Virus record (IMG/VR): IMGVR_UViG_3300028920_000029
Coordinates: 96,001 to 160,000 of that record
DNA length: 64,000 bases
Strand: one strand, 5' to 3'
DNA from: a virus
Part shown: piece by piece, positions 30,437 to 55,885 of the stretch
How the letters are laid out: each line of letters starts with the position of its first letter
Numbering within the stretch: position 1 is the stretch's first letter
Position numbers and translations under genes: made by a program
The notes under the pieces: model-generated
What the model was told of the DNA's origin: nothing
The model's input: only the letters and a program-made list of their open reading frames with translations
Database searches by the model: none

Positions 30437-31243
30437 ATTACACCTCCTTAATGTGTTATTATTACATCATCTTTGCATTTATGAAAAATTTTAAAAAGAA
30501 TCCACATACCAACAGCTCCTAGACCAAGACCACAATAAAAAATAGAAACTGCAAAAATAATAATGTCTACTTCTGTAAAAGTGCTTGGGACCATTATAAC
30601 CTTATCCTCTAACATATTACTCACTCTCCTTTAATTATTTTAGGGCTGTGGTGTGTCCTAAACCCCTACGAGTTTAGTCTGCCCTTTGCAATAGGGCTTT
30701 GGCTTTACACATATTTCAGATACCCACACCACATTTAAGCACCCTTACTCACTCTCCCTGTGATTTGATAAAACTAATTTTTAAGTTTTATTTCACTGTA
30801 ATCAAAACTGTGTTTCCTTAATGCGTCAATAATATCGTTTTGAATACTATTTATATTCATTTCTATTTCATCCTTTGTGAGACCTGTCATTTTTACATCA
30901 ACTTTCATACTTATTTCATCCGTCCAGTGTCCATTTGTTGCTACTACCTTAAATGTTCTTTTCATTTCTAGTTACCTCCCTGTGATTTGACTTTTTAATT
31001 TCTATATTTAATCCCATAATTCCAAAGATAAAAGACCTTTCAACTATTTGAATTTGAACTCGGAATAAATGAATATCAAAAAAAGATATTCTTAAATACA
31101 ATAAATCAGTAATACCATAATACATAAACTGAAAACACCTAAAATCTATTTGAATTCCCTCTTTTATTTGTATATCTATTTTTTTATCATATGTTAACCA
31201 GTCTTGCCAAAACTTTATATCCATATTACACCTCCTTATTTTT

Positions 31244-31525
31244 TCATCTATCGTGGGCGCTTATCTGAATAACTATAGAGTTGTTAGGCTCTCGTATTAG
31301 TCTATCTGCTATAGCATCCTGCTCTATTGATTTAAAATCCCAACGATCTTTTACACGTAACTTTGCCGAGGGAAACCTTTTTCTTATAGCAGAAACTACG
31401 GCGGTTATGCTTACTCCTTTTTTAGGTGTAATATCGCACAGATACCATCCAAAACTTCCTGCGCCATAAAAGGTGCACTTAAACAACTTATCGTAGTTTT
31501 CCAAAGTTGATTCCTTATTTCTCAC
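31244..31525 (-). CDS. PKKGVSxTA-family protein
   Basis: ITPKKGVSITAVV. Confidence 0.65.
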   Translation of the reverse strand: MRNKESTLENYDKLFKCTFYGAGSFGWYLCDITPKKGVSITAVVSAIRKRFPSAKLRVKDRWDFKSIEQDAIADRLIREPNNSIVIQISAHDR

Positions 31526-31757
31526 AGAATGTTCCTACGGCGTAACTAACGCCCAATAATGCTACCACAATCATACCGCCATAAAAACTTATTTCGTTTG
31601 TTGTGTACCATTTATGGAGTGCCCAGAGTATTACTGCTAGTGCGTCCAGTATTACTACGGTTATTCCTATGTGCAGTAATCCTATGCCTATTCTTCGTAG
31701 AATAACTTTCCATATAGGTTCTATTACGGGATCTGGATCGGACCATAATTCTGACAT
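31515..31757 (-). CDS. small membrane protein
   Basis: two TM segments; AAGGAGG RBS and promoter upstream. Confidence 0.65.
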   Translation of the reverse strand: MSELWSDPDPVIEPIWKVILRRIGIGLLHIGITVVILDALAVILWALHKWYTTNEISFYGGMIVVALLGVSYAVGTFCEK

Positions 31758-31796
31758 ACCGTGCCTCCTTCAATGTAGTATATCGCTTACAGTATA

Positions 31797-31824
31797 AGTA
31801 TACTGATAGAATTGGATTTGTCAA
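31797..31824 (-). promoter_or_regulatory. sigma70/sigmaA-type promoter
   Basis: TTGACA-16nt-TATACT with AT-rich upstream element. Confidence 0.75.
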
Positions 31825-31845
31825 GAAAAAATTTAAGAAATTTTA

Positions 31846-31878
31846 TGGTGCCAGCAGATGGACTCGAACCACCGTAGC
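31846..31878 (-). pseudogene. orphan 3' half of a tRNA (T-arm, acceptor strand, CCA)
   Basis: GGTGG-TTCGAGT-CCATC-TGCTGGC-A-CCA; acceptor strand pairs with 32534-32540. Confidence 0.8.
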
Positions 31879-31882
31879 TATA

Positions 31883-31966
31883 TGGTGGGCAGGGATGGAT
31901 TCGAACCATCGTACCCGAGGGAACGGATTTACAGTCCGCCGCCTTTAACCGCTCAGCCACCTACCC
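31883..31966 (-). tRNA. tRNA-Tyr(GTA)
   Basis: cloverleaf, loop CT-GTA-AA, long variable arm, CCA. Confidence 0.95.
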
Positions 31967-32443
31967 ACGTTTTTTACTACCATATGTATCTGTTTGAGTA
32001 TGACAATTTGGACAAAGAATTCTTAGGTTCTCTAATCTATTGTCAGTATGATCACCGTTTATATGGTCTAAGTGCATACTTAGTTTTTTATTATTCCATA
32101 CGTTACCTTGACTACATTTCTCACATATTTCCTGCTTTAATCCAAACTCATATAATTTTTGTTTTAATGCATGACTTGTCCACTTAGCACCATCTAAACA
32201 AAGAACATTTTTTGTGAAGGACGTTATGGAGTGTTTCCTGCTATTGGCCCCAGTAGATGACCACCCACGATTTTTAAAATGGGACGTATCTAGCCCATAA
32301 TCCTTAATACGTTTAGCCACTAAATTGTGACTTCCTCCACCTACTCGTAAACCTAACTCTCTAATAATGTCCGCGACATTATAATGTCTTTTGACTAACT
32401 CGTTTAACAGTTCCTTACTATATTTTGTAGTATTTGCTTTCAT
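31961..32443 (-). CDS. HNH homing endonuclease (start revised to MKANTT)
   Basis: CEKC...LDHINGDHTDNRLENLRILCPNCH; stop codon lies inside the 5' end of tRNA-Tyr. Confidence 0.9.
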   Translation of the reverse strand: MKANTTKYSKELLNELVKRHYNVADIIRELGLRVGGGSHNLVAKRIKDYGLDTSHFKNRGWSSTGANSRKHSITSFTKNVLCLDGAKWTSHALKQKLYEFGLKQEICEKCSQGNVWNNKKLSMHLDHINGDHTDNRLENLRILCPNCHTQTDTYGSKKRG

Positions 32444-32470
32444 AGTAAACCTCCTATCTAGAATACTACT

Positions 32471-32499
32471 AGTATAGCATATTATAGTGACAAAAGCAA
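32471..32499 (-). promoter_or_regulatory. promoter of the HNH cassette
   Basis: TTGCTT-17nt-TATACT. Confidence 0.55.
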
Positions 32500-32504
32500 A
32501 TACC

Positions 32505-32540
32505 AACAGCCAGATGTCATTGCCGCTAGACTATACTGGC
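32505..32540 (-). pseudogene. orphan 5' half of a tRNA (GTN anticodon)
   Basis: GCCAGTA-TA-GTC..GAC-A-TCTGG-CTGT then breaks off. Confidence 0.8.
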
Positions 32541-32548
32541 ACTATATT

Positions 32549-32635
32549 TGGCGGAAAGCTCAGGACTTGAACCTGAACGGGATTGCTCCCCAGAGTTTAG
32601 CAAACTCTTGCCTTACCAATTAGGTCTAGCTTTCC
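32549..32635 (-). tRNA. tRNA-Ser(GCT)
   Basis: AGAGT-TTGCTAA-ACTCT, long variable arm. Confidence 0.92.
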
Positions 32636-32643
32636 TTTATTTC

Positions 32644-32739
32644 TGGAGGAGAGGGAGCGATTCGAACGCTCGAGCGTCATCTCTGACGCCACCTATTTTC
32701 AAGATAGGTAGAATAAACCTGACTCTCTTACACCTCTCC
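32644..32739 (-). tRNA. tRNA-Ser(TGA)
   Basis: CCTAT-CTTGAAA-ATAGG, long variable arm. Confidence 0.9.
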
Positions 32740-32745
32740 TCTATA

Positions 32746-32824
32746 TGGTTGCGGAGGTCAGATTTGCACTGACGTTGTTTCAGGGTATGAGCCTGCTGCT
32801 GGAACTACTCCAGCCCACTCCGCT
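32746..32824 (-). tRNA. tRNA-Met(CAT), initiator-like
   Basis: CT-CAT-AC loop, unpaired 1:72. Confidence 0.8.
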
Positions 32825-32831
32825 TATTTTT

Positions 32832-32908
32832 TGGTCCCCAAGCCTGGAGTTGAACCAAGAAAAAGCAGGTTTTGAATCTGCCGCCTATGCCAATTCGGCT
32901 ACTTGGGG
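32832..32908 (-). tRNA. tRNA-Leu(CAA)
   Basis: TT-CAA-AA loop, short variable region. Confidence 0.88.
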
Positions 32909-32909
32909 T

Positions 32910-32995
32910 TGGTGCGCCAGGTAGGACTTGCACCTACACGACCGAAGCCGACGGATCTTAAGTCCGTTGCGTCTGCTAAATTCCGCCACTAGCGC
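32910..32995 (-). tRNA. tRNA-Leu(TAA)
   Basis: ACGGA-CTTAAGA-TCCGT, long variable arm. Confidence 0.92.
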
Positions 32996-32996
32996 T

Positions 32997-33072
32997 TGGT
33001 GGGTCCACAGGGAATTGCACCCCAATCTTCCGATTAAAAGTCGGAAGCTCTAACTAATTGAGCTATAGACCC
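32997..33072 (-). tRNA. tRNA-Lys(TTT)
   Basis: TCCGA-CTTTTAA-TCGGA. Confidence 0.93.
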
Positions 33073-33073
33073 T

Positions 33074-33150
33074 TGGTGCCCCTAGAAGGATTTGAACCTT
33101 CAGAATTCTGATTCTAAGTCAGATAGCTATACCGATTCGCCTATAGGGGC
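33074..33150 (-). tRNA. tRNA-Leu(TAG)
   Basis: TCTGA-CTTAGAA-TCAGA, short variable region. Confidence 0.88.
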
Positions 33151-33152
33151 AT

Positions 33153-33227
33153 TGGTGCGTCGAGGTGGGAACGATCCACCGACCTTCTCCTTAAGAAGGA
33201 GCAGCTCTACCACTGAGCTACCGACGC
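33153..33227 (-). tRNA. tRNA-Lys(CTT)
   Basis: CTCC-TTCTTAA-GGAG. Confidence 0.9.
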
Positions 33228-33231
33228 ATTA

Positions 33232-33304
33232 AAGGTTGGGCTGCGTACACGCTGTATCGTTTCTCCAAGGATTACGCCTCCTAGGCGACCAACTACCCAA
33301 CCTT
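33232..33304 (-). ncRNA. unidentified ~73-nt structured RNA
   Basis: 9-bp closing stem AAGGTTGGG/CCCAACCTT with internal CGCCT/AGGCG hairpin; fills the gap between RNase P RNA and tRNA-Lys. Confidence 0.45.
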
Positions 33305-33312
33305 ATTTTTAA

Positions 33313-33603
33313 AAGTAATTCATAACCCAGGTTCTGTTTTTGCAGTCATTAATCTTAGCGTCCTTACCCGCGTGCTCCGTGAGGTCTCATCATCACACGC
33401 CTATTTGGACTTGCTCACAGTAAAGGTTGGTCGTCTCACTTGTTTTTAGTTTATATAATTTTCAGAATCTGAGTTTTTATAAAACTAAAAACAACTCGTC
33501 TCTGTCCCCTATTTGTCGCTCACGCGCCCAGCTTTTAAGACTGGTACTGCGCCTCAATTGAGCCTGGAGTTTCCTCGGTTTCCCGCGACTGCTTGAATCA
33601 CTC
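33313..33603 (-). ncRNA. rnpB: RNase P RNA
   Basis: P1 GAGTGATTCA/TGAATTACTT, P2 GCAGTC/GACTGC, GAGGAAACTCCAGG and AACAGAACCTGGGTTAT forming P4 with the bulged U; ACAGA, GAGCAAG motifs. Confidence 0.9.
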
Positions 33604-33816
33604 TTATTTTTTCAACAATGCAATTAATTCTCTTCTAGCTTTTGCTTCCTCTGGGGTATCGTGAACACTATGATCTACCCATTTAACATCCACTTCTGAA
33701 TACTCAACAAATCTACCATCAACTAAAATCCATCCTCGTTTTGTGTTTTTGTTTCCAAATAATACTGGTCCAGCAATTTGTACTTTTTCTCCTGTAGCTT
33801 TAATTATTGCTTCCAT
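33604..33816 (-). CDS. hypothetical protein (start revised to MEAIIK)
   Basis: AAGGAGGT RBS; the longer ORF in the track overlaps tRNA-Asp. Confidence 0.65.
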   Translation of the reverse strand: MEAIIKATGEKVQIAGPVLFGNKNTKRGWILVDGRFVEYSEVDVKWVDHSVHDTPEEAKARRELIALLKK

Positions 33817-33841
33817 TTGTTTACCTCCTTCCCGTAAATTT

Positions 33842-33916
33842 TGGCGCCCCACGACAGAGTTGAACTGTCCTATTCGGCGCGACAAGCCGACGTAATAGCC
33901 GATATACGAGTGGGGC
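33842..33916 (-). tRNA. tRNA-Asp(GTC)
   Basis: TCGGC-TTGTCGC-GCCGA, G73. Confidence 0.9.
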
Positions 33917-33928
33917 ACTATTTCTTTT

Positions 33929-33957
33929 AGTATACTTAAAATACCAACAAGCGTCAA
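33929..33957 (-). promoter_or_regulatory. internal promoter upstream of tRNA-Asp
   Basis: TTGACG-17nt-TATACT. Confidence 0.7.
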
Positions 33958-34199
33958 TTAGCTTTTTTATTTTTTACTATACTTCTTAATTTATTATGCA
34001 GCCCAGCAAAAATTGGCAAATAAACATTCTTAAACGTTTCTTTCCATTTTTCACAGTATGGACAACCGTCTATGTGATCGTCCTCATTTATGTGTTTCTT
34101 ACACATATGTACGCCGTCTTCAGCAATATAATAGTGTTCCGTCTCAGTTACCAAAATCGGTTCCGTTACACCTTTTCGATACAATAATTTTTTACCCAT
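33954..34199 (-). CDS. hypothetical protein
   Basis: 81 aa, AAGGAGGTGA RBS, own promoter. Confidence 0.65.
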   Translation of the reverse strand: MGKKLLYRKGVTEPILVTETEHYYIAEDGVHMCKKHINEDDHIDGCPYCEKWKETFKNVYLPIFAGLHNKLRSIVKNKKAN

Positions 34200-34219
34200 A
34201 GTTCACCTCCTTTCTTTTA

Positions 34220-34248
34220 AGTATACTTAAGGTTTTGACATATGTCAA
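34220..34248 (-). promoter_or_regulatory. internal promoter
   Basis: TTGACA-17nt-TATACT; -35 is half of the palindrome TTGACATATGTCAA. Confidence 0.75.
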
Positions 34249-34261
34249 GCCTTTTATTTCC

Positions 34262-34336
34262 TGGCACCCCCTGTAGGCTTCGCACCCACGCACCGCGGTC
34301 CGTAGCCGCGAGCTCTGTCTCCTGAGCTAAGGGGGT
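34262..34336 (-). tRNA. tRNA-Arg(ACG)
   Basis: CGCGG-CTACGGA-CCGCG. Confidence 0.9.
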
Positions 34337-34337
34337 A

Positions 34338-34412
34338 TGGTGTCCCTTGATGGAATCAAACCACCGTCTCAGCTTTAGGAAAGCCGTGTTCTATTCACTG
34401 TACTAAAGGGAC
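34338..34412 (-). tRNA. tRNA-Arg(CCT)
   Basis: CGGCT-TTCCTAA-AGCTG. Confidence 0.9.
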
Positions 34413-34413
34413 A

Positions 34414-34489
34414 TGGTGCCCTGAGAAGGACTCGCACCCTCGACCTACGGAGTAGAAATCCGCTGCTCTGTCTCCTGAGCTACCAGGGC
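34414..34489 (-). tRNA. tRNA-Arg(TCT)
   Basis: GCGGA-TTTCTAC-TCCGT. Confidence 0.9.
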
Positions 34490-34494
34490 CTTAC

Positions 34495-34570
34495 TGGTTG
34501 CGGGACCACGGATCGAACGTGGACTATTCTGAGTCAGGGTCAGATGTTTTGCCTATTAAACTATCCCGCA
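34495..34570 (-). tRNA. tRNA-Gln(CTG)
   Basis: TCTGA-CCCTGAC-TCAGA, T1:A72; C33 instead of U33. Confidence 0.85.
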
Positions 34571-34571
34571 A

Positions 34572-35117
34572 CTATATCTTCCATTTTTTACGTCTTTTAA
34601 TAACAGCTTGACCACTACAATTTTTAATAGTAGCAATCTCTTCGTTAGTTTTTCCGTCTTTTACTAAGGCCTCAAGTTCTCTTTTGTTCCATTCTATTTT
34701 TCCAGCTAATTTTCCTGCACACATTAAAGAACAAGTTTTTCTATATGCCATCTTTTCCTTGCCACATACTGGGCAAAAATCCTTTAATTCGTTTTTAGTA
34801 GAATCTGTTATAAGTTTATCATTAAATCTCAATGCTGTTTTTGGAATTATACTTATTAATCCATGCACTTCGCTATGACAATTGCTACAAACCATAACAC
34901 ATTTTTCTACTTCTTTTTTAATTTTTATCCACTTCGTAGGATCTCTAAGCATAAAAGCAATTCCGCTTTCTTTATCTTTACTATTTAAATGATGGAACTC
35001 TAAAGCGTCTATATGTTTATTATACCCACAAATGCAACATTTTCCACCAAAACCTTCTACTAGTTTCTTTTTTGTATTCCGTCTCCAACGTTTTACAGCC
35101 TCAGATTTAGCACTCAT
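34572..35117 (-). CDS. HNH endonuclease with C-terminal Zn-finger/HTH
   Basis: GGKCCICGY...ALEFHH...KCVMVCSNCHSEVH. Confidence 0.88.
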   Translation of the reverse strand: MSAKSEAVKRWRRNTKKKLVEGFGGKCCICGYNKHIDALEFHHLNSKDKESGIAFMLRDPTKWIKIKKEVEKCVMVCSNCHSEVHGLISIIPKTALRFNDKLITDSTKNELKDFCPVCGKEKMAYRKTCSLMCAGKLAGKIEWNKRELEALVKDGKTNEEIATIKNCSGQAVIKRRKKWKI

Positions 35118-35147
35118 AGTAAAACCTCCTTATAGTTTATTACTACA

Positions 35148-35177
35148 AGTATAACATAACACGGTGTGTTAATGCAA
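35148..35177 (-). promoter_or_regulatory. putative promoter of the second HNH
   Basis: TTGCAT-18nt-TATACT with extended -10 TG. Confidence 0.5.
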
Positions 35178-35192
35178 CTTGTTACGTTATAT

Positions 35193-35267
35193 TGGCTCCA
35201 GCGGGTGGAGTCGAACCACCATTTTACTCCTTAACAGGGAGGCGCATTACCATTATGCTACACTGGA
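35193..35267 (-). tRNA. tRNA-Asn(GTT)
   Basis: CT-GTT-AA, G73. Confidence 0.92.
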
Positions 35268-35269
35268 AC

Positions 35270-35346
35270 TGGTGCCTCCGAAAGGATTTGAACCTTTGGC
35301 CAAAGCGTTATCAACACTCTGCTCTACCAAGCTGAGCTACAGAGGC
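35270..35346 (-). tRNA. tRNA-Ile(GAT)
   Basis: TT-GAT-AA loop. Confidence 0.92.
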
Positions 35347-35347
35347 A

Positions 35348-35423
35348 TGGTGGAGACGATCGGGAACGATCCGACAACCCCCTGATTGCAAATCAGGCGC
35401 TCTCCCAATTGAGCTACGTCCCC
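35348..35423 (-). tRNA. tRNA-Ala(TGC)
   Basis: TT-TGC-AA, G3:U70. Confidence 0.93.
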
Positions 35424-35424
35424 A

Positions 35425-35500
35425 TGGTGGATACTTTTGGAGTCGAACCAAATTCTCTTGTTCTTCAGACAAGCGTGATGACCGCATTCACCAAATATCC
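35425..35500 (-). tRNA. tRNA-Phe(GAA)
   Basis: CTTGT-CTGAAGA-ACAAG. Confidence 0.9.
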
Positions 35501-35501
35501 A

Positions 35502-35578
35502 TGGTGCTCTCCGAAGGACTCGAACCTCCGACCCTCTCATTATGAGTGAGACGCTCTAACCGACTGAGCTAGAAGAGC
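35502..35578 (-). tRNA. tRNA-Ile2 or elongator Met (CAT)
   Basis: TCTCA-CTCATAA-TGAGA; identity not resolvable by eye. Confidence 0.85.
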
Positions 35579-35585
35579 AATATTC

Positions 35586-35659
35586 TGGAGAGGCGAGTAA
35601 GATTTTAACTTACCTTATCTGGGTTGCAACCAGACGCCTAGACACTTGGCTATCGCCTC
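35586..35659 (-). tRNA. tRNA-Cys(GCA)
   Basis: TT-GCA-AC, U73. Confidence 0.88.
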
Positions 35660-35670
35660 TCTTAATTCTC

Positions 35671-35745
35671 TGGTAGTCGGAGTGGGTACTGCCCCCACCT
35701 GGTCCTCTTTGTAAGAGAGGTGCATGACTAATCTGCCATCCGACT
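35671..35745 (-). tRNA. tRNA-Val(TAC)
   Basis: CCTCT-CTTACAA-AGAGG; atypical D and T loops. Confidence 0.85.
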
Positions 35746-35766
35746 TCTATTAAGATCTATAAATCC

Positions 35767-35840
35767 TGGTTGCCTCAGAACGGGTCGAACGTTCGCTACC
35801 TGTGTCAAAAACAGGCGTGCTACCACTACACTACAAGGCA
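35767..35840 (-). tRNA. tRNA-Gln(TTG)
   Basis: CCTGT-TTTTGAC-ACAGG, T1:A72. Confidence 0.9.
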
Positions 35841-35844
35841 TTTT

Positions 35845-35918
35845 TGGAGAGGGCTAAGGGACTCGAACCCTTTTTTTCAGTTTGGAAGACTGGAGTTAAA
35901 CCTATTAACTAAGCCCTC
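35845..35918 (-). tRNA. tRNA-Gly(TCC)
   Basis: CT-TCC-AA, U73. Confidence 0.88.
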
Positions 35919-35920
35919 TC

Positions 35921-35991
35921 TGGTACCACGAACTGGAATTGCACCAATCCTCTGGGCGTATGAAACCCTGAGTCCATCTAATGGTCGTGGC
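35921..35991 (-). tRNA. atypical tRNA(CAT) with shrunken D-arm
   Basis: acceptor GCCACGA/TCGTGGT, GGGT-TTCATAC-GCCC, T-arm, CCA; D-arm reduced to CCAT-TAG-ATGG. Confidence 0.7.
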
Positions 35992-35999
35992 CTATATTT

Positions 36000-36075
36000 T
36001 GGAGCCCACGGAGGGACTTGCACCCCCAACCGTCGGTTTACAGGACCGCTGCTCTTCTATTAAAGCTACGCGGGC
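36000..36075 (-). tRNA. tRNA-Thr(TGT)
   Basis: CGGT-CCTGTAA-ACCG, C2:G71; C33. Confidence 0.85.
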
Positions 36076-36085
36076 TCTTAATTTT

Positions 36086-36159
36086 TGGTGTGAGGCGGGG
36101 ATTTGAACCCCTCTGGGAGAGCCACAATCTCCCGTGCTAACCATTACACTAGCCCCACC
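36086..36159 (-). tRNA. tRNA-His(GTG)
   Basis: TT-GTG-GC loop, encoded G-1. Confidence 0.9.
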
Positions 36160-36162
36160 ACT

Positions 36163-36237
36163 TGGCACCGCCGTAAGGAATCGAACCCTATCTTTCTGTT
36201 CTGGAGACAGATGTGCTAACCATTACACTACTGCGGC
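36163..36237 (-). tRNA. tRNA-Trp(CCA)
   Basis: TCTGT-CTCCAGA-ACAGA, G73. Confidence 0.92.
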
Positions 36238-36240
36238 ATT

Positions 36241-36317
36241 TGGTGACGCATGTGGGACTCGAACCCACAATCCTCAGACTGAAAATCTGATGGCTTAAAC
36301 CATTTGCCTAATGCGCC
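36241..36317 (-). tRNA. tRNA-Glu(TTC)
   Basis: TCAGA-TTTTCAG-TCTGA. Confidence 0.92.
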
Positions 36318-36349
36318 ACATCTCTTTAACTGTTAAGAACTATAAGTGC

Positions 36350-36426
36350 TGGTCTAGGTGGAAGGATTTGAACCTTCGACATCTTGCTTCCAAGGCAAGC
36401 AGGCTACCAGACTGCCCCACACCTAG
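36350..36426 (-). tRNA. tRNA-Pro(TGG), first gene of the array
   Basis: CTTGC-CTTGGAA-GCAAG, C1:G72. Confidence 0.92.
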
Positions 36427-36431
36427 TCGTT

Positions 36432-36471
36432 AAAATAAAAAAGGCCCGACGGATTTCTCCGCCAGGCCTTT
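36432..36471 (-). terminator. intrinsic terminator (attenuator) directly upstream of the tRNA array
   Basis: 14-bp stem AAAGGCCTGGCGGA-GAAA-TCCGTCGGGCCTTT running into a U-rich tract, ending 5 nt before tRNA-Pro. Confidence 0.9.
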
Positions 36472-36492
36472 GTCTAGTACTACTCTAATTCG

Positions 36493-36645
36493 TCACATAG
36501 AGCTGCCTGGCAGACCTGGCGGTTTTTGTGTATCTATACATACCGCCGCCAACAGAATATAGGCATGCATAAATAACTGGCTATCGCCAAGCCATTCTGC
36601 TCTTCGCCTATTCTCTGTGGTCTGTGACAAACTCTTAAGCAACAT
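36493..36645 (-). CDS. 50-aa leader peptide containing all 20 amino acids (not in ORF track)
   Basis: AGGAG RBS at 36655-36659; MLLKSLSQTTENRRRAEWLGDSQLFMHAYILLAAVCIDTQKPPGLPGSSM*; lies between promoter and terminator. Confidence 0.8.
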   Translation of the reverse strand: MLLKSLSQTTENRRRAEWLGDSQLFMHAYILLAAVCIDTQKPPGLPGSSM

Positions 36646-36717
36646 GATTTATTTCTCCTAATTTTGGTGCTATGTTGGACTAGCACCTTATGCTAACACA
36701 ATCTTTATGACAATACA

Positions 36718-36746
36718 AGTATACTCATGGTTTCGGTAAATGTCAA
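36718..36746 (-). promoter_or_regulatory. promoter of the leader/tRNA operon
   Basis: TTGACA-17nt-TATACT. Confidence 0.85.
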
Positions 36747-36759
36747 GTAAATTTGTAAA

Positions 36760-37107
36760 CTAAGTAATAAAAAATGTACAGTATAAAACGCCCACAAGAA
36801 GTATAATTCCCATAGCAGTAACAAACAAAATTTCTGAAATAATACTGCGCTTCTTAAACCTGGTACACCTCCCATTCTTATTAAGCTGTGCTTGGCCTGC
36901 TATCCTAACTTTTTTACATTGTGTACCATATGTTGGATCCCACACATCTTGCGGGTCAAAACAATCGTCATGAGTACACACAATAGTATAGCCACTAATA
37001 ACTATGCTAGAATTGGGTTCATTGGGATCAATAAACCTCTCTTCTACACTGGTGTACCCATTATTTAGATATGTACAATCTTCACACTTTACCGTGCCTT
37101 TTTTCAT
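36760..37107 (-). CDS. Cys-rich protein with C-terminal TM anchor
   Basis: CEDC..C..C..C..C, hydrophobic tail. Confidence 0.6.
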   Translation of the reverse strand: MKKGTVKCEDCTYLNNGYTSVEERFIDPNEPNSSIVISGYTIVCTHDDCFDPQDVWDPTYGTQCKKVRIAGQAQLNKNGRCTRFKKRSIISEILFVTAMGIILLVGVLYCTFFIT

Positions 37108-37570
37108 CTTTCCACCTCCTTTGAAATAGTTTCTTAATTTTTCTTATTCCGTATTTGATACCCCACCTAATACGTCTCAATAGCCCTATAACGCTAATCA
37201 TTATATGACCATACCAAGGTACCAAACTTATAAAGTCGGCATCTGGTTGTCCAACAAGTACGTTTTTACGTTTAGGTTTATGAACTCTATACTTACTAAC
37301 AAGCTCTAATAAATCTTCTTCCTCGATAACGCCGCTATTGTCACCTATAATATATACAACGCTATGTGTACTCGATGATTTACCAACGCCAGAAAGTGAG
37401 GTTGACGTAACTCTAAAAAAGTTGTGTACATTCAAATACGTGCAACTTTTATACTGGCGGGAGCTGCGAACAAACCAACGCCTAAATAACCCAACCAAAG
37501 TTACGGTGCAGTAACCTTTAGAGGCTTTCCAATCTAATACTGGATCCCACGCCAGCTTCTCGCTACTCAT
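37082..37570 (-). CDS. divergent DLVKDW-family protein
   Basis: DPVLDWK..TVTLVGLFRRW..YRVHKP..PWY. Confidence 0.65.
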   Translation of the reverse strand: MSSEKLAWDPVLDWKASKGYCTVTLVGLFRRWFVRSSRQYKSCTYLNVHNFFRVTSTSLSGVGKSSSTHSVVYIIGDNSGVIEEEDLLELVSKYRVHKPKRKNVLVGQPDADFISLVPWYGHIMISVIGLLRRIRWGIKYGIRKIKKLFQRRWKDEKRHGKV

Positions 37571-37992
37571 TTAGTATCTCCTTTAGTAGGGTAAGTTCTT
37601 TTTTCGGTATCTGGTTCTACAGATATATCGCCAACTCCTATATAAGCTTCCAAGTTCCTCTTGGGTTTAACTTTTGAATTAATGGTATCTATGTACGCAT
37701 GCACTTTATCAGACATAGTTTTTGTAGTTATATCTTCTGGAAGCTCATCCTCAACAATCTTTTTGTCGTTTAGAATAACGGTGAATCCTCCAAGCATTCC
37801 AGGGGCCTTTGGGTTCGATGTAGGCATTACCGCAACAGGTTTATAAAACTTAAAATCCTTTTGTAACTGAATACCTAATGATCGAGCCAGTTCCATAGTA
37901 GTCGCTGCACGAGATAATACGTCCGATAAATCCTTCTTAGATAACTTCATGAACTCTTTCCACTGTCTTGGTTCTATTCTATTCATCTTCAT
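37567..37992 (-). CDS. hypothetical protein
   Basis: 141-aa ORF. Confidence 0.65.
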   Translation of the reverse strand: MKMNRIEPRQWKEFMKLSKKDLSDVLSRAATTMELARSLGIQLQKDFKFYKPVAVMPTSNPKAPGMLGGFTVILNDKKIVEDELPEDITTKTMSDKVHAYIDTINSKVKPKRNLEAYIGVGDISVEPDTEKRTYPTKGDTK

Positions 37993-38416
37993 AGCTATCC
38001 TCCATACTAAGTCTTTTAAGTGTTGAATATACGTGTCTGTTATCTAACTGATACTCGTGCGGGAAATAACACTCATATTTTTCGGCTATGAACCTTGCTA
38101 CCGCCGCAGACCTGCTAACTCCTCCTTCACAGTGTACCACTATATGCTCAATGTCCTTTGGAAGCATATCTATAAACTCTAGTATCTTACGTGCGTCATC
38201 CTCCGTAAAGTTTATATACTCATTCTCTTCTGCGCCGTCAAAGACCCAGGCACCTCTGACGCCATCCACGTCATGAAAAGCAAGCCTTAAAACATACTTC
38301 CATAACTTGTGTAGTGTTGGGGCGTCTCTTTTGGGGTCCCTAATGGAAATTAAAGCTACATGTTCATTAGGTACCACCTGTTCTATAACTGCCCTGGATA
38401 CGAAGTCGACTTTCAT
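37979..38416 (-). CDS. dual-specificity/tyrosine phosphatase family protein
   Basis: CX5R motif VHCEGGVSRSAA, FHD loop. Confidence 0.85.
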   Translation of the reverse strand: MKVDFVSRAVIEQVVPNEHVALISIRDPKRDAPTLHKLWKYVLRLAFHDVDGVRGAWVFDGAEENEYINFTEDDARKILEFIDMLPKDIEHIVVHCEGGVSRSAAVARFIAEKYECYFPHEYQLDNRHVYSTLKRLSMEDSYEDE

Positions 38417-43583: not shown

Positions 43584-44534
43584 TCATTGTATGCTCGCTT
43601 TAAAATATTCTATGGTTCTTTTTAGTCCTTCATCTATTGAAGTTTTAGCTTCGAACCCCAACAACTCCCTAGCCAATCTCGTATCGCTTTGTCTAGTTCT
43701 ATACCCTACCCGTTCAATACTTTTATCAAATACAACATTAGCGTTACTTCCACTAATGTATACTATTTTTTCTACTAAATCTTTTATAGTTATTTGGTCA
43801 TCACATGCTAAATTTATTGGAGTAGCATCCTTAGACTTTTCTGACGCCAAAAGTATTCCTTGTACTATATCCTTTACATATATAAACGATCTTGTTTGTA
43901 AACCATTACCCCACACCACTATTTCGTCTTTAGTTACGGCCTTGTTAACTAACGCAGCCACTACGTGCGCCACCTTAGGGTCAAACTTATCTTTAGGGCC
44001 GTATGCGTTGGACGGCCTAACTATAGTAACTGGTTTTCCAGAATATTTATACATAGTTTGCCCAAGCTGTTCCATAGTTCTCTTAGCTAATCCGTAGCCT
44101 AAATTTGTTTCTTCTGGAAGGTCTAAAAACCCTGCGGATTCTGGAGTGGGTACCTCAGCGTCTCTAGCGTATACGCAGGCCGAACTCACTAACGTAACTG
44201 CTTGGATATTATTGTCCTGTATGGCTTGAAGTACATTACTTGACATAATAACATTATTATTAAATATGCTAAAGTTACTATTCATATTGTACTCTATACC
44301 TCCAACATCTGCTGCCAAATGCATTACATGATCGAAGTCTTTGATAGCTTCAACACACTGTGGTAGATTTTTAAGATTTGCAGTTACGACTTTACATCCC
44401 ATAAACATATCTTGAGGAATTCTAGATAGTATACTAACATCAGCCATCTCTGATTTTAACGCCTCACATAGATGTGAACCTATGAACCCAGAGCCTCCAG
44501 TAACTAAGACTTTTTTGTTTTTCCAAAAACTCAC
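43584..44534 (-). CDS. NAD(P)-dependent GDP-sugar epimerase/reductase (Fcl/ColC/GME-like)
   Basis: TGGSGFIG, LAADVGGI, SSACVY, YGLAK, VWGNG..RSFIYV. Confidence 0.85.
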   Translation of the reverse strand: MSFWKNKKVLVTGGSGFIGSHLCEALKSEMADVSILSRIPQDMFMGCKVVTANLKNLPQCVEAIKDFDHVMHLAADVGGIEYNMNSNFSIFNNNVIMSSNVLQAIQDNNIQAVTLVSSACVYARDAEVPTPESAGFLDLPEETNLGYGLAKRTMEQLGQTMYKYSGKPVTIVRPSNAYGPKDKFDPKVAHVVAALVNKAVTKDEIVVWGNGLQTRSFIYVKDIVQGILLASEKSKDATPINLACDDQITIKDLVEKIVYISGSNANVVFDKSIERVGYRTRQSDTRLARELLGFEAKTSIDEGLKRTIEYFKASIQ

Positions 44535-45694
44535 TTTAGTATCTCCTCAAATGTTTTTCCTATGTAGTCTATATCGCTATCCGTTATATACTGATGACAT
44601 CCAATGTAAAATGCTTGTGACCCTAGAAATTCCGCATTCTTTAATTTACCCTTATACTCAAATTTAAAGTTTGAATATGCTGGCTGTTGTGTAGGTATAC
44701 ACCCAAACAGCGGCCTCGACTCAATTCCTTTAGCTGTTAGTTTACTCATAAGCTCTTCTCTATTTAGGTTGGTAATTATTGGATATGCTAAATAGCTTAC
44801 GTTCTCGTCATACTTAGGGAGTATCAAAGCGTTCGAAATTCCTTTTAGCCTATTGTTTAGTTTCTTAACATTTTCTGATCTTACTTTAACTATTTCATCC
44901 ATTTTAGCTATCTGCCCTATCCCTAACGCTGCTTGAAATTCCATAGTCTTAAAATTATATCCTACATGGGTATGCGTAAACCTTGGGTTGTTTCCTTCTT
45001 TTGGACACGTACCTTGAGCCTTCGTGCACACCAAACAATCACATGCCCTACCATTAGCTTTTAATCTCCTTATTAACTTCGCGACTTCTGCATCATCGGT
45101 AACTATAGCTCCCATCTCGCCAACCTGAATGTTGTGCGCTATATAAAAGGAATAGTCCGCAAGTAACGACATAGTGCCCACATTCTTTCCGTTTATCTTG
45201 GTTCCGTGAGCTTGTGCAGCGTCCTCAAATACAGTTAGGTTATACTTTTTGGCTAGATAGTTTATTGCGTCCATGTCGCATGGATAACCCATTAAATGTA
45301 CTGGGAGTATCGCGGCGTATCCTTTCGGGTCAACCTGTAGTAACGACTCCACCTCAACAATAGACATATCAAACGTTATGGGGTTCACGTCAACATATAC
45401 TGGTTTAAGTCCTGCAAGTATTAAGGCGTTTGATGTTGCTACATAAGTCAGCGGAGTAGTAATAACTTTGCTGCCTTTAGGAACCTTATTAAGGTACTTA
45501 AGCGCTAGCAAGCCTACAAGCAGTGCAGACGTACCAGAGTTAACCGTTACACAGTATTTTGTACCTATCTTCTTGGCAAACTCTTTTTCAAACTCCTTAA
45601 CATACTTGCCTTCGGATATCTGCCCAGAGTCTAATACGGCGTTAATGGCGTCTCTTTCTTCCTTACCTATTCTAAAATCTCCTACCCTAATCAT
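44531..45694 (-). CDS. DegT/DnrJ-fold PLP enzyme, probable 3-dehydratase (ColD/RfbH-like)
   Basis: VNSGTSA, EDAAQAHG, SFYIAHN with His at the catalytic Lys position, Cys cluster CDCLVC..C. Confidence 0.8.
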   Translation of the reverse strand: MIRVGDFRIGKEERDAINAVLDSGQISEGKYVKEFEKEFAKKIGTKYCVTVNSGTSALLVGLLALKYLNKVPKGSKVITTPLTYVATSNALILAGLKPVYVDVNPITFDMSIVEVESLLQVDPKGYAAILPVHLMGYPCDMDAINYLAKKYNLTVFEDAAQAHGTKINGKNVGTMSLLADYSFYIAHNIQVGEMGAIVTDDAEVAKLIRRLKANGRACDCLVCTKAQGTCPKEGNNPRFTHTHVGYNFKTMEFQAALGIGQIAKMDEIVKVRSENVKKLNNRLKGISNALILPKYDENVSYLAYPIITNLNREELMSKLTAKGIESRPLFGCIPTQQPAYSNFKFEYKGKLKNAEFLGSQAFYIGCHQYITDSDIDYIGKTFEEILK

Positions 45695-54013: not shown

Positions 54014-55885
54014 TTACACTCCCAAGTACCAATCTTTGTGCTTATCTTTTATATAAGACTTTATGGCATCTAAGTTTTTGTCGGCAACCGTTGTCCTGCT
54101 TGAACCCTTAACTCTCCAAAACAAGGAGGATTCTAAACACTTACCAATTCTCTTAGTTCGCTTAGCTATCCTTAACCAAAACTCGTAGTCTTCCCAGCCT
54201 AATGACATACCTTCATCAAAGCCTCCAACCTTTTCCCACAGTGATTTCCTAAACATAGCCGAACAGTTAATAAACGGCCCTTTCCGTATCTTCTCCTCTG
54301 AGTATTCTGGCCAATCATAAATCTTATCCGACGAATCAAAACATGTGGAGCTAGTATAAGATACGTCCAGGTTATTGCTTGTAATGTTGTTATAGTTAGC
54401 TTTTAGATAGTTAGTCGGCAATATGTCATCCCCATCCACGCACACTATAAACTTATATTTAGCCTCACTAATACCTCGGTTTCTTGCAGCAGATACTCCC
54501 ATATTCTTATCTTGTTTTAACAGTCTTATATCCATATCTTTTTCTTTGTCTATGTAGTTTTGTATAACCTCCACAGACTTATCGGTAGACGCGTCGTCAA
54601 CCACTATAACTTCGAACTCCATTGTTTTAGAGTTAGCTTTTATAGACTGCAAAGTTTCCTCTATGTATTTCTCCTGATTAAAACACGGAACAACAACGGA
54701 TATTTTATCAACTTGGGGCTTGGATATTACCATAGAAGATATACCTTTCTTTAGCTTTTCATCTACTATCTTCTTATACCAATTAGCTGTTTGCTTGGCC
54801 ATTATCCTTTGATCAAACTTTCTCTTTACCAACTCTTTCCCAGCCATACCTATGCGTTTTCGAAGGGCTTTATCCTGTATAAGTTTTTCCAAAGCCTTAA
54901 CCCATCTCAGATGGCACTTTCCTTTTGGAGAAACTAACAGTCCATCCTGGCCATCTGTTATTGTCCTATTATACGCAGGAACGTCTGACGCGATAACTGG
55001 TATACCTAATCCAGCCATCTCTATATATTTAAGATTGGATTTGTTAGAGTTAAACTCGGAATCCTTTAACGGACACAGCCCTATGTCTATGTTATATAAC
55101 CTACTGTAGTGTTCGTATAAGTTCTTCGTCCAGTCAAATCTTTGAAACCTGTCTGGCGGTAAGTCGTTAAACCCTTCAAAGGTTCCAAACCCACCAAATA
55201 GAAACTTAACTTTTGGGTACTTATTAAGTATCTCCTTTATTGCAGATATTATTTGTTGTAGGTCCTCGCCGTGGCTATGCCCTCCAGTCCATCCTATAAC
55301 TACATCATCTGTCTCGTAGTTTCTTGGTAGATCATTAAGGTTTCCATATATGCTAAGGTCTATTCCATTTGGAATAACTCTAACATTTTTATTCTTGTTT
55401 TGTAAAGTTGTCTTAAGTACATCCGTACTTACTGTGACATAGTCTGCGGCCTTAGTCATATTATTAAGAACACGTTGAGCATCTGCATTCATAAAAGCAT
55501 CATAAGCGGGGTTGTCTGGAGCCAGATTCGACAAGTCATCGTCCAGTTCAAACGTATATACGATATTAGGATTCTGTTCTTGCATCACCTGGTAAATGTG
55601 AGGCTCATAAACTCTCTGAGTACCTATTATTTTAAAGTGGGGATTTTGGTATAGCTGTGCTGAACACCAGTTAGTTATGGTTATGTTAATATCATCGTAG
55701 TGTTCGGTATTTATTGCCCAGGCTAACTGAAGTAATCTATACCATCCGCACGCATTTATACTACTTAGTATATATAAAACCTGCATAGCTTTTGGATTAC
55801 TCTTTAGTATTCCTGGTGCTATGGTTGCTGTTCTACTCTTATCAAACAACACTGTCCAATCTCTTAAGAATTGAAAGTCCATCAT
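54014..55885 (-). CDS. GT4-GT2 fusion glycosyltransferase
   Basis: ELDD..KSNLKYIE..GIPVIASD, then VVVPCFN..VDDASTD..DGDD..WEDY. Confidence 0.85.
   Translation of the reverse strand: MMDFQFLRDWTVLFDKSRTATIAPGILKSNPKAMQVLYILSSINACGWYRLLQLAWAINTEHYDDINITITNWCSAQLYQNPHFKIIGTQRVYEPHIYQVMQEQNPNIVYTFELDDDLSNLAPDNPAYDAFMNADAQRVLNNMTKAADYVTVSTDVLKTTLQNKNKNVRVIPNGIDLSIYGNLNDLPRNYETDDVVIGWTGGHSHGEDLQQIISAIKEILNKYPKVKFLFGGFGTFEGFNDLPPDRFQRFDWTKNLYEHYSRLYNIDIGLCPLKDSEFNSNKSNLKYIEMAGLGIPVIASDVPAYNRTITDGQDGLLVSPKGKCHLRWVKALEKLIQDKALRKRIGMAGKELVKRKFDQRIMAKQTANWYKKIVDEKLKKGISSMVISKPQVDKISVVVPCFNQEKYIEETLQSIKANSKTMEFEVIVVDDASTDKSVEVIQNYIDKEKDMDIRLLKQDKNMGVSAARNRGISEAKYKFIVCVDGDDILPTNYLKANYNNITSNNLDVSYTSSTCFDSSDKIYDWPEYSEEKIRKGPFINCSAMFRKSLWEKVGGFDEGMSLGWEDYEFWLRIAKRTKRIGKCLESSLFWRVKGSSRTTVADKNLDAIKSYIKDKHKDWYLGV

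What the first reader, a model, noticed from the sequence alone, without database searches (positions are those of the whole stretch)
36432..36746. Pan-amino-acid leader-peptide attenuator controlling a phage tRNA array
Seen (minus strand): promoter TTGACA-17-TATACT (36746-36718), then AGGAG RBS, then a 50-codon ORF (36645-36493; MLLKSLSQTTENRRRAEWLGDSQLFMHAYILLAAVCIDTQKPPGLPGSSM) containing all 20 amino acids within its first 42 codons. A 14-bp GAAA-loop terminator with U-tract (36471-36432) follows, with tRNA-Pro 5 nt later. CCGCCAGGTCT in codons 42-45 (36522-36512) can pair 11/11 (one G-U) with the terminator's 5' arm AGGCCTGGCGG (36469-36459), forming an antiterminator. Established: trp/his/thr-type attenuators use this logic but sense one or two amino acids through runs of repeated codons. 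Inference: this leader samples the whole code, so a ribosome stalled on any depleted tRNA (anticodon-nuclease defence or starvation) would let transcription read into the replacement tRNA set. I know of no described system of this kind, but could not search.
Basis: partly seen in the sequence, partly recalled or inferred. Interest (0 to 1): 0.96.

Follow-up and report, generated by a model that had tools for sequence, protein, structure and literature searches.

The report
Structured leader gene gating phage tRNAs
An uncultured marine-sediment phage, and one distant relative, place a promoter, a ribosome-binding site, a folded 50-codon reading frame and a strong transcription stop directly in front of a block of tRNA genes; this looks like a trp-operon-style switch for tRNA production, but the idea that it senses all 20 amino acids is not shown.

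Summary
I found a second copy of the module in an unrelated metagenome contig (L021/L022). It has the same promoter type, the same AGGAGAAATAA ribosome site, a 48-codon frame, a GAAA-loop terminator, then tRNA-Pro-Glu-Trp-His-Thr. Both RNAs fold far better than shuffles (z -7.0 and -4.0) into one shared architecture. In both, the terminator's 5' arm has an upstream partner about as stable as the terminator itself, at the same place (codons 42-47), although the arm sequences differ. The leader is as conserved as the tRNAs behind it. I therefore favour a real terminator/antiterminator switch gating the promoter-proximal tRNA block, most likely read by ribosome position. Three claims are weak:
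- The coding signal is only modest.
- All-20 coverage is a 1-5% event, and its retention in the homologue has a conditional probability of 0.13-0.37.
- Leader codons match the phage tRNA set no better than background.

Later tRNA blocks have their own promoters. Only two family members exist, and there are no expression data. Earlier notes of this scan report similar mini-ORF/terminator cassettes before tRNA arrays in many other phages. I partly confirmed one, in Caulobacter phage phiCbK. I found no published account.

The parts
36718..36746 (-). Sigma-70-type promoter TTGACA-17-TATACT
   Evidence: It matches 11 of 12 consensus positions. The same hexamers occur at 34248, 33957 (TTGACG) and 31824, each before an ordinary small gene or a tRNA. 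The homologue has TTGACA-17-TATTCT at L021:499-527.
36646..36711 (-). 5' untranslated leader. The first about 12 nt (UUGUCAUAAAGAU) and the SD region AGGAGAAAUAA (36659-36649) are conserved. A 28-nt stretch with two hairpins is an insertion absent from the homologue.
   Evidence: Alignments A1 and A3 and the fold.
36493..36645 (-). 50-codon reading frame, stop TGA at 36495-36493. It holds all 20 amino acids. The conserved blocks are ENRR..EW, FMH-AYILL and IDTQKPPG.
   Evidence: The homologue P0007 is 48 aa, E 2e-4, 53-59% identical, and also holds all 20 amino acids. Nucleotide identity is 75%, against 58-75% for the adjacent tRNAs.
36623..36633 (-). Helix Ha, 5' strand (codons 5-8). It pairs with 36487-36497, the stretch that contains the stop codon, so the whole frame is closed into one domain.
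   Evidence: MFE helices. An analogous helix between the start of the frame and its stop-codon region, with a different sequence, exists in L021.
36553..36617 (-). Long irregular hairpin Hb-Hc-Hd (codons 10-31). Its apical stem is AAUGGCU/AGUUAUU.
   Evidence: In L021 the apical stem is AAUGGCA/UGCCAUU. That is one U-A to A-U swap and two G-U to G-C changes, inside the part where the peptide is not conserved.
36518..36547 (-). Hairpin He ('1:2'): GGCGGU/ACCGCC around a loop whose 15 nt (AUAGAUACACAAAAA) are invariant between the two phages.
   Evidence: A 24-nt block is identical, including eight third codon positions.
36503..36522 (-). Antiterminator strand(s): CCGCCAGGUCU (36522-36512, codons 42-45, Pro-Pro-Gly-Leu) and an overlapping second copy CUGCCAGGCAG (36513-36503).
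   Evidence: Duplexes with the terminator's 5' arm are -23.6 and -20.7 kcal/mol, shuffle P 0.002. In L021 the partner is GGUGGGGUGA, just 3' of CCGCCA: -14.2 against -14.1 for the hairpin, shuffle P 0.03.
36428..36471 (-). Intrinsic terminator: 14-bp stem, GAAA loop, then UUUUUUAUUUUAA.
   Evidence: -24.6 kcal/mol. In L021 it is an 8-bp stem with a GAAA loop and an identical U-tract.
34262..36426 (-). Gated block: tRNA-Pro, Glu, Trp, His, Thr(UGU, C33), a CAU tRNA-like gene, Gly, Gln, Cys, Met, Phe, Ala, Ile, Asn, an HNH-like ORF, then Gln and Arg x3. No strong promoter was detected inside it.

Best explanation
The element is a cis-acting transcription attenuator. A host-type early promoter starts a leader RNA of about 280 nt. 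The leader carries a ribosome-binding site and a 50-codon frame folded into a compact multi-helix domain, and it ends in a strong intrinsic terminator five bases before tRNA-Pro. The terminator's 5' arm can pair either with its 3' arm (stop) or with a strand lying on codons 42-47 of the frame (go).

I infer that ribosome position decides between the two. A ribosome that keeps pace with RNA polymerase sits on the antiterminator strand while the terminator is being made, possibly held there by the conserved Pro-Pro-Gly codons. The terminator then forms. A ribosome that lags or stalls upstream leaves that strand free, and polymerase reads into the next roughly 19 tRNA genes.

Shown here: the anatomy, its conservation in a second phage, the fold and the alternative pairing. 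Inferred: translation of the frame, the ribosome as the sensor, the pause at Pro-Pro-Gly, and any link to tRNA or amino-acid supply. Breadth of sensing, meaning which codons matter, is open.
For: 1. A second copy of the whole module exists. Promoter, SD, ATG, 48-codon frame, GAAA-loop terminator, identical U-tract and then tRNA-Pro-Glu-Trp-His-Thr lie on contigs with unrelated flanking genes.
2. The leader frame is 75% identical in DNA. That equals or exceeds the adjacent tRNA genes at 58-75%.
3. Both RNAs fold significantly better than shuffles, z -6.97 and -4.04 with 0 of 200 shuffles each. They share helices, and one stem keeps pairing through a double change.
4. In both, the best upstream partner of the terminator's 5' arm is as stable as the terminator and lies at codons 42-47, although the arms differ in sequence. 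Shuffle P is 0.002 and 0.03.
5. A footprint-masking model predicts that the arm pairs upstream in the nascent RNA unless the ribosome's P site is on codons about 41-47.
6. AGGAG-N9-ATG is conserved inside an otherwise diverged 5' leader. dN/dS is lower in this frame (0.36) than in the other two (0.65-0.75), and the only internal indel is 3 nt.
7. No other promoter-like site of 10 or more of 12 matches lies between the terminator and tRNA-Asn (35193), and there is no second terminator, so these tRNAs appear to need read-through.
Against: - Only two independent sequences exist, so covariation cannot be tested statistically.
- The coding signal is weak. Differences by codon position are 12/12/18, and frame +1 is also open in both sequences to the same TAG.
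- At full length the terminator is always the minimum-energy fold, so any switch must be kinetic.
- Another strong hairpin in this genome also finds an upstream partner at 0.94 of its own energy. The duplex statistic alone is therefore not decisive.
- There are no runs of regulatory codons, and codon matching to the phage tRNAs is not above background.
- The antiterminator partners in the two phages are analogous rather than base-for-base homologous.
- Other tRNA blocks of the same phage, and tRNAs of a more distant relative, sit directly behind the same promoter type with no leader.
- The host and any phage-specific promoters are unknown.
Confidence: 0.5

Rival explanations
1. It is a stand-alone small gene: a structured small RNA, possibly dual-function and also encoding a 50-aa peptide, with its own promoter and terminator. 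The tRNAs behind it are made by constitutive leak through the terminator or from promoters of a kind I cannot recognise. There is no regulated switch.
For: - Own promoter, strong terminator with a long U-tail, z -7 fold and an invariant 15-nt single-stranded loop that could be a seed.
- The phage scatters ordinary small genes with the same promoter among its tRNAs.
- The terminator is the minimum-energy fold in every modelled state.
- Attenuator-derived RNAs can act in trans (rnTrpL, PMC6614838).
Against: - A terminator-arm partner of matching strength is kept at the same place in both phages despite different arm sequences.
- tRNA-Pro begins five bases after the U-tract in both, so the two units are physically fused.
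- No match to any Rfam family at E <= 1.
Confidence: 0.25
2. It is a translation-independent riboswitch-like leader. The closed three-way domain (Ha, Hb-Hd, He) binds a ligand, a protein or a tRNA and thereby sets terminator against antiterminator. The reading frame is incidental.
For: - It has aptamer-like closed architecture followed by a terminator, with an invariant loop.
- The weak coding signal and a second open frame fit a non-coding reading.
- Helices are preserved exactly where the peptide is not.
Against: - AGGAG-N9-ATG is conserved and unpaired.
- There is no hit to T-box or any riboswitch model.
- The antiterminator has no T-box-type bulge.
- dN/dS is lowest in the ATG frame.
Confidence: 0.12
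3. It is a chance coincidence of an ordinary small gene, an ordinary terminator and a fortuitous complementarity.
For: - The all-20 property and the duplex were noticed post hoc.
- A control terminator also finds a partner at 0.94 of its own energy.
- Two of 90 small ORFs in the genome have all 20 residues.
Against: - The whole module is conserved at tRNA-like levels in a second phage with unrelated flanks.
- Both copies are significantly structured.
- Both keep an alternative partner at the same place.
Confidence: 0.05

Closest known systems
Leader-peptide transcription attenuators of amino-acid operons (trpL, hisL, thrL, multivalent ilvGMEDA leader); textbook knowledge, see also PMC1183508
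   Same: Promoter, SD plus short frame, an intrinsic terminator before the regulated genes, and an antiterminator strand inside the frame that competes for the terminator's 5' arm.
   Different: The regulated genes are tRNAs, not biosynthetic enzymes. The frame is long (48-50 codons) and has no run of regulatory codons. The stop codon lies after the antiterminator strand rather than before it. The whole frame is closed by a helix joining its start to its stop.
pyrBI attenuator of E. coli (44-codon leader that senses how tightly ribosome and polymerase are coupled); from my own knowledge, not checked here
   Same: A long leader frame, with the outcome set by whether the ribosome keeps up with RNA polymerase rather than by one amino acid.
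   Different: In pyrBI the frame runs through the terminator, so the ribosome blocks the hairpin directly and close coupling gives read-through. Here the frame ends 21 nt before the stem in the window (28-29 nt in L021), and close coupling would give termination.
Leader-ORF attenuators that sense general ribosome stalling (vmlR of B. subtilis, PMC9226507; mef/mel, PMC4335068)
   Same: A short frame plus terminator/antiterminator that reports slowed translation in general.
   Different: Those control antibiotic-resistance factors in bacteria and respond to drugs. This one sits in a phage before tRNA genes.
T-box riboswitches
   Same: A terminator/antiterminator leader tied to tRNA status.
   Different: No Rfam T-box match, no specifier loop or UGGN bulge, and the downstream genes are tRNAs rather than synthetases.
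Mini-ORF / terminator cassettes before tRNA blocks in other phages
   Same: The same order of parts. In Caulobacter phage phiCbK (JX100813) the annotated 45-aa gp083 is followed by an annotated rho-independent terminator and then tRNA-Pro x2, Lys x2, Leu x3 and Ser x2. Of its 45 residues, 25 are P, K, L or S by my own hand count of the translation.
   Different: Those leaders are reported as matched to the few amino acids of their block. This leader carries all 20 and shows no enrichment over background. There is no sequence similarity.

Membership tests
Ribosome-mediated (leader-peptide) transcription attenuator | Short reading frame with SD and start codon in the leader transcript | tested here: met
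   AGGAG-N9-ATG and a 50-codon frame. The same is found in L021 with 48 codons.
Ribosome-mediated (leader-peptide) transcription attenuator | Intrinsic terminator between the leader frame and the regulated genes | tested here: met
   A 14-bp stem plus U-tract ends 5 nt before tRNA-Pro. L021 has an 8-bp stem plus the same U-tract.
Ribosome-mediated (leader-peptide) transcription attenuator | Mutually exclusive antiterminator that uses the terminator's 5' arm and a strand within reach of the translating ribosome | tested here: met
   Window: -23.6 against -24.6 kcal/mol, P 0.002. L021: -14.2 against -14.1, P 0.03. Both lie on codons 42-47. A control terminator weakens the statistic.
Ribosome-mediated (leader-peptide) transcription attenuator | Regulatory codons: a run or enrichment of the sensed codons | tested here: not met
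   There are no runs. 41 of 50 codons are readable by phage tRNAs against 37.8 +/- 3.7 in ordinary genes, P 0.25.
Ribosome-mediated (leader-peptide) transcription attenuator | The frame is under coding selection in relatives | tested here: inconclusive
   dN/dS is 0.36 against 0.65-0.75 in the other frames, and the single indel is 3 nt. However, differences by codon position are 12/12/18 and frame +1 is also open. n = 2.
Ribosome-mediated (leader-peptide) transcription attenuator | Read-through responds to ribosome stalling or aminoacyl-tRNA supply | not testable with these tools
   The host is unknown.
T-box riboswitch and other Rfam families (6S, tmRNA, SRP, riboswitches) | Match to the family covariance model | tested here: not met
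   cmscan at E <= 1 over 31000-38000 gave no hit in 36428-36750. ARAGORN found no tmRNA.
Candidate class of this scan: codon-matched mini-ORF attenuators before phage tRNA arrays | Promoter, mini-ORF, terminator and tRNA block in this order | tested here: met
   The same order of ORF, terminator and tRNA block is seen in phiCbK; its promoter was not examined.
Candidate class of this scan: codon-matched mini-ORF attenuators before phage tRNA arrays | Leader composition mirrors the tRNAs of the block behind it | tested here: inconclusive
   The leader holds all 20 residues, so a match is automatic, and there is no excess over background. By my own hand count from the alignment and the tRNA list, the shared conserved core holds codons for all six tRNAs common to both phages (Pro, Glu, Trp, His, Thr, CAU). 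My rough, uncomputed estimate of the chance of that is a few percent.

The most novel reading that the evidence does not exclude
The leader is a deliberate pan-codon test track. Because it carries every amino acid and its antiterminator strand lies at the very end of the frame, a ribosome delayed at any codon leaves the antiterminator free. The delay could come from starvation, an anticodon nuclease or any other tRNA-depleting defence. The phage's replacement tRNA set would then be switched on, so phage tRNA production is coupled to the measured health of host decoding.
Probability: 0.15. Interest if true: 0.9.

Novelty: new variant of a known kind. Interest (0 to 1): 0.62.

Why it matters
Why phages carry tRNA genes, and how they are controlled, is still argued. 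Proposals include codon compensation and escape from tRNA-cleaving defences (for example PMC10264068). A translation-coupled switch in front of a tRNA block would mean the phage measures decoding speed and supplies tRNAs on demand. That would extend a classic regulatory logic to tRNA genes and give a direct handle for testing the defence-escape idea. I found no published description. The same layout in cultivable phiCbK offers a laboratory system.

Tried and rejected
**Known RNA families.** No Rfam hit at E <= 1 in the element and no tmRNA. I also looked by eye for SRP, 6S and T-box motifs and dropped them.

**Type I toxin.** The hydrophobic stretch is too short, and it is polar in the homologue.

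**Internal promoter for the tRNAs.** Only a 9-of-12 site lies inside the frame, and its -35 is not conserved.

**Searches for further homologues, all negative:**
- blastn of the leader against 50,697 phage records: none.
- The neighbouring 115-aa protein: none in IMG/VR and only a 36%-identical fragment elsewhere.
- IMG/VR pattern scans with 21-mer, IDTQKPPG-degenerate, Pro-Glu spacer, helix and terminator patterns gave nothing or chance hits in unrelated genes.
- GTDB genomes: chance hits only.
- The profile search of 5.8 billion proteins and the metagenome scan found only the same two members.
- An exact look-up of the protein next to the leader in L021 found no longer contig.

**Portal-protein relatives.** These share up to 67% identity (G002, the complete one, 63%). 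The complete 150-kb genome G002 has one tRNA, no leader and no RNase P RNA. G001 has dispersed tRNAs directly behind promoters.

**Sequencing runs.** No RNA holder listed. Contigs of a second sediment run carry a near-identical phage. It has TTG>TTA in codon 2 and two changes between the SD and the ATG, which is too little to use.

**Other tests.**
- RNAalifold on the MAFFT alignment mis-pairs the terminator because of indels, so I compared helices per sequence instead.
- The control set of genome terminators was mostly weak hairpins.
- The first ensemble model timed out.
- A blastn of the tRNA block found only single tRNA matches and no syntenic arrays.

Full report
**Observation**

- The promoter TTGACA-17-TATACT lies at 36746-36718.
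- AGGAG sits nine bases before an ATG.
- The frame is 50 codons, 36645-36493, and reaches all 20 amino acids by codon 42.
- A 14-bp GAAA-loop hairpin with a U-tract lies at 36471-36430.
- tRNA-Pro(UGG) starts at 36426.
- The proposed antiterminator, 36522-36512 paired with 36469-36459, is 11 contiguous pairs. It is worth -23.6 kcal/mol against -24.6 for the terminator, and only 0.2% of shuffled upstream sequences do as well.

**Context**

The window is bases 96001-160000 of a 173-kb IMG/VR virus record. The DNA is held in marine-sediment metagenome runs. The phage has no close relative in GenBank phages.

Its tRNA region (31.9-36.4 kb) holds 26 ARAGORN tRNAs. Rfam adds one more, and a further CAU tRNA-like cloverleaf lies at about 35921-35995. 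The region also contains a reduced bacterial-type RNase P RNA, two HNH-like ORFs and several small ordinary genes.

The promoter hexamers of the finding recur at 34248 (before an 81-aa gene), at 33957 (directly before tRNA-Asp) and at 31824. The promoter is therefore credible. It also follows that the leader can gate only the tRNAs from Pro (36426) down to the Arg genes (34262). Within that stretch I found no strong promoter and no other terminator.

**The leader is strongly structured**

From the predicted start to the U-tract the RNA folds at -104 kcal/mol, z = -6.97. Without the terminator z is -5.2, and for codons 8-46 alone it is -6.3. No Rfam family matches at E <= 1. At this point I leaned towards a non-coding RNA.

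**A homologue**

An exhaustive phmmer search with the 50-aa peptide found one credible relative, P0007 (48 aa, E 2e-4). It lies on two identical short contigs from different archives, L021 and L022.

The locus repeats the whole module: TTGACA-17-TATTCT, an identical AGGAGAAATAA, ATG, a 48-codon frame, a GAAA-loop terminator with a different 8-bp stem, the same TTTTTTATTTTAA, and then tRNA-Pro, Glu, Trp, His and Thr in the same order. The upstream genes are unrelated.

DNA identity is 75% over the frame, against 58-75% over the tRNAs. The leader is thus constrained at least as strongly as the tRNAs. No third member was found by any route.

**Structure comparison**

L021 also folds better than every shuffle (z -4.04). 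Folded separately, the two RNAs give the same plan:
- Helix Ha joins codons 5-8 to the stop-codon region.
- A long hairpin Hb-Hd follows.
- Hairpin He (GGCGG/CCGCC) has a 15-nt loop that is identical in both.
- The terminator closes the leader.

In Hd the stem AAUGGCU/AGUUAUU becomes AAUGGCA/UGCCAUU. That is one double compensatory change and two G-U to G-C changes, inside the segment where the peptide is not conserved. Ha is kept with different sequences, though in a slightly shifted register. With two sequences this is suggestive, not statistical.

**Terminator against antiterminator**

The two terminator 5' arms differ: AGGCCUGGCGG in the window and UCGCCCGGC in L021. Each still has an upstream partner of the same strength as its own hairpin. 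In both phages the partner lies just at or after the conserved CCGCCAGG, on codons 42-45 in the window and 44-47 in L021. The window also carries an overlapping second copy of the partner.

Two cautions apply. Another strong hairpin in this genome also finds a partner at 0.94 of its own energy. The two antiterminators are analogous rather than homologous base for base.

I ran a simple model that masks a 28-nt ribosome footprint. It predicts that, before the 3' arm is made, the 5' arm pairs upstream in every state except when the P site is on codons about 41-47. At full length the terminator is always the minimum-energy fold. Any switch is therefore kinetic. The discriminating state is a ribosome sitting on the end of the frame, where both phages keep Lys-Pro-Pro-Gly. 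From general knowledge, Pro-Pro-Gly is a slow, EF-P-dependent motif. Its role here as a pause is my inference.

**Is the frame translated?**

For translation:
- The conserved, unpaired AGGAG-N9-ATG lies in an otherwise diverged leader.
- The one internal indel is 3 nt.
- dN/dS is 0.36, against 0.65-0.75 in the other frames.
- A synonymous TTG>TTA change in codon 2 is seen both in L021 and in a near-identical environmental variant.

Against translation:
- Differences by codon position are 12/12/18.
- Frame +1 is open in both sequences to the same stop.
- The conserved peptide blocks coincide with conserved helix strands.

I put translation at roughly 60-70%.

**The pan-amino-acid claim**

All-20 coverage has P = 0.018 with proteome composition, 0.010 in real 50-residue windows and 0.052 for random sequence. 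Two of 90 similar-sized ORFs in the genome show it.

The homologue also has all 20. However, 17 kinds already sit in the 25 shared residues, so it needs only Ser, Val and Cys among its variable positions, with P 0.13-0.37. The diversity of the shared core itself (17 kinds in 25 residues) has P 0.02-0.03.

Leader codons are readable by the phage's own tRNAs no more often than codons of ordinary genes: 41 of 50 against 37.8 +/- 3.7. The design claim is therefore not excluded, and the geometry is compatible with sensing at most codons. It is not supported beyond a weak hint.

**Wider context**

Earlier notes of this scan describe many mini-ORF/terminator cassettes ahead of phage tRNA blocks in other genomes. 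I treated these as leads only.

I checked one. In phiCbK (JX100813) the annotated 45-aa gp083 is followed by an annotated rho-independent terminator and then nine tRNAs for Pro, Lys, Leu and Ser. Of its 45 residues, 25 are P, K, L or S by my own hand count of the translation. The layout therefore recurs in a cultivable phage.

Literature searches found classical and drug-sensing leader attenuators but nothing on tRNA genes in phages.

By contrast, a more distant relative of this phage (portal 63% identical) drives tRNAs directly from the same promoter type with no leader. The device is optional.

**Verdict**

The element is a real, conserved, structured leader fused to a tRNA block, and the best reading is a terminator/antiterminator attenuator, probably ribosome-mediated (0.5). 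The main rival is a stand-alone, possibly dual-function small RNA gene with a leaky terminator (0.25). A ribosome-independent riboswitch-like leader comes next (0.12). The pan-codon sensor is a sub-case at about 0.15. It is a new variant of a known regulatory kind, and it needs homologues and bench tests.

Noticed in passing
window 33308-33604 (-): A reduced bacterial class-A RNase P RNA lies inside the tRNA array, between a small ORF and tRNA-Lys. It is 297 nt, scores 112 bits against a gathering score of 100, E 2e-34. It is absent from the portal-related phages G001-G005.
   Followed up: partly
window 36003-36075 (-) and 35921-35995 (-): Two tRNA genes were missed by ARAGORN. One is a tRNA-Thr(UGU) with C instead of U at position 33 (Rfam 46 bits). 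The other is a CAU-anticodon cloverleaf with a short D arm that neither tool called. Both have counterparts in L021 (1122-1197 and 1198-1273).
   Followed up: partly
window 34248-34220, 33957-33929, 31824-31797 (-): Near-identical promoters, (C)TTGACA-16/17-(ag)TATACT, are scattered through the tRNA region. They drive small ordinary genes and tRNA-Asp directly. The same type occurs in the distant relative G001 (L046 8534, 6621).
   Followed up: partly
window 34572-35117 (-) and about 31967-32443 (-): Two HNH-like ORFs (Cys pairs, HxxH/HLDH motifs) are inserted between tRNA genes. The first has no Pfam hit; the second was not scanned. They may be homing endonucleases that shape the array.
   Followed up: no
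G000:C1:160740-162374 (-), just beyond the window: The phage encodes a full-length GroEL-type chaperonin (PHROG 5725, E 1e-162).
   Followed up: no
window 44531-45694 and 54014-55885 (-): A DegT-type aminotransferase and a 623-aa double glycosyltransferase lie at these coordinates, within a densely packed run of ORFs (about 41-56 kb) that was otherwise not examined. This may be a sugar-modification gene cluster.
   Followed up: no
window 36251-36693: Contigs of a second marine-sediment run from another study carry a near-identical phage. The only leader differences listed by coordinate are TTG>TTA in codon 2 and two bases between the SD and the ATG (contig row: 4 other letters; 3 are tabulated).
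   Followed up: partly
L053 (phiCbK JX100813 47000-53000): The published annotation already marks rho-independent terminators immediately before three tRNA blocks. One of them follows the 45-aa gp083.
   Followed up: partly
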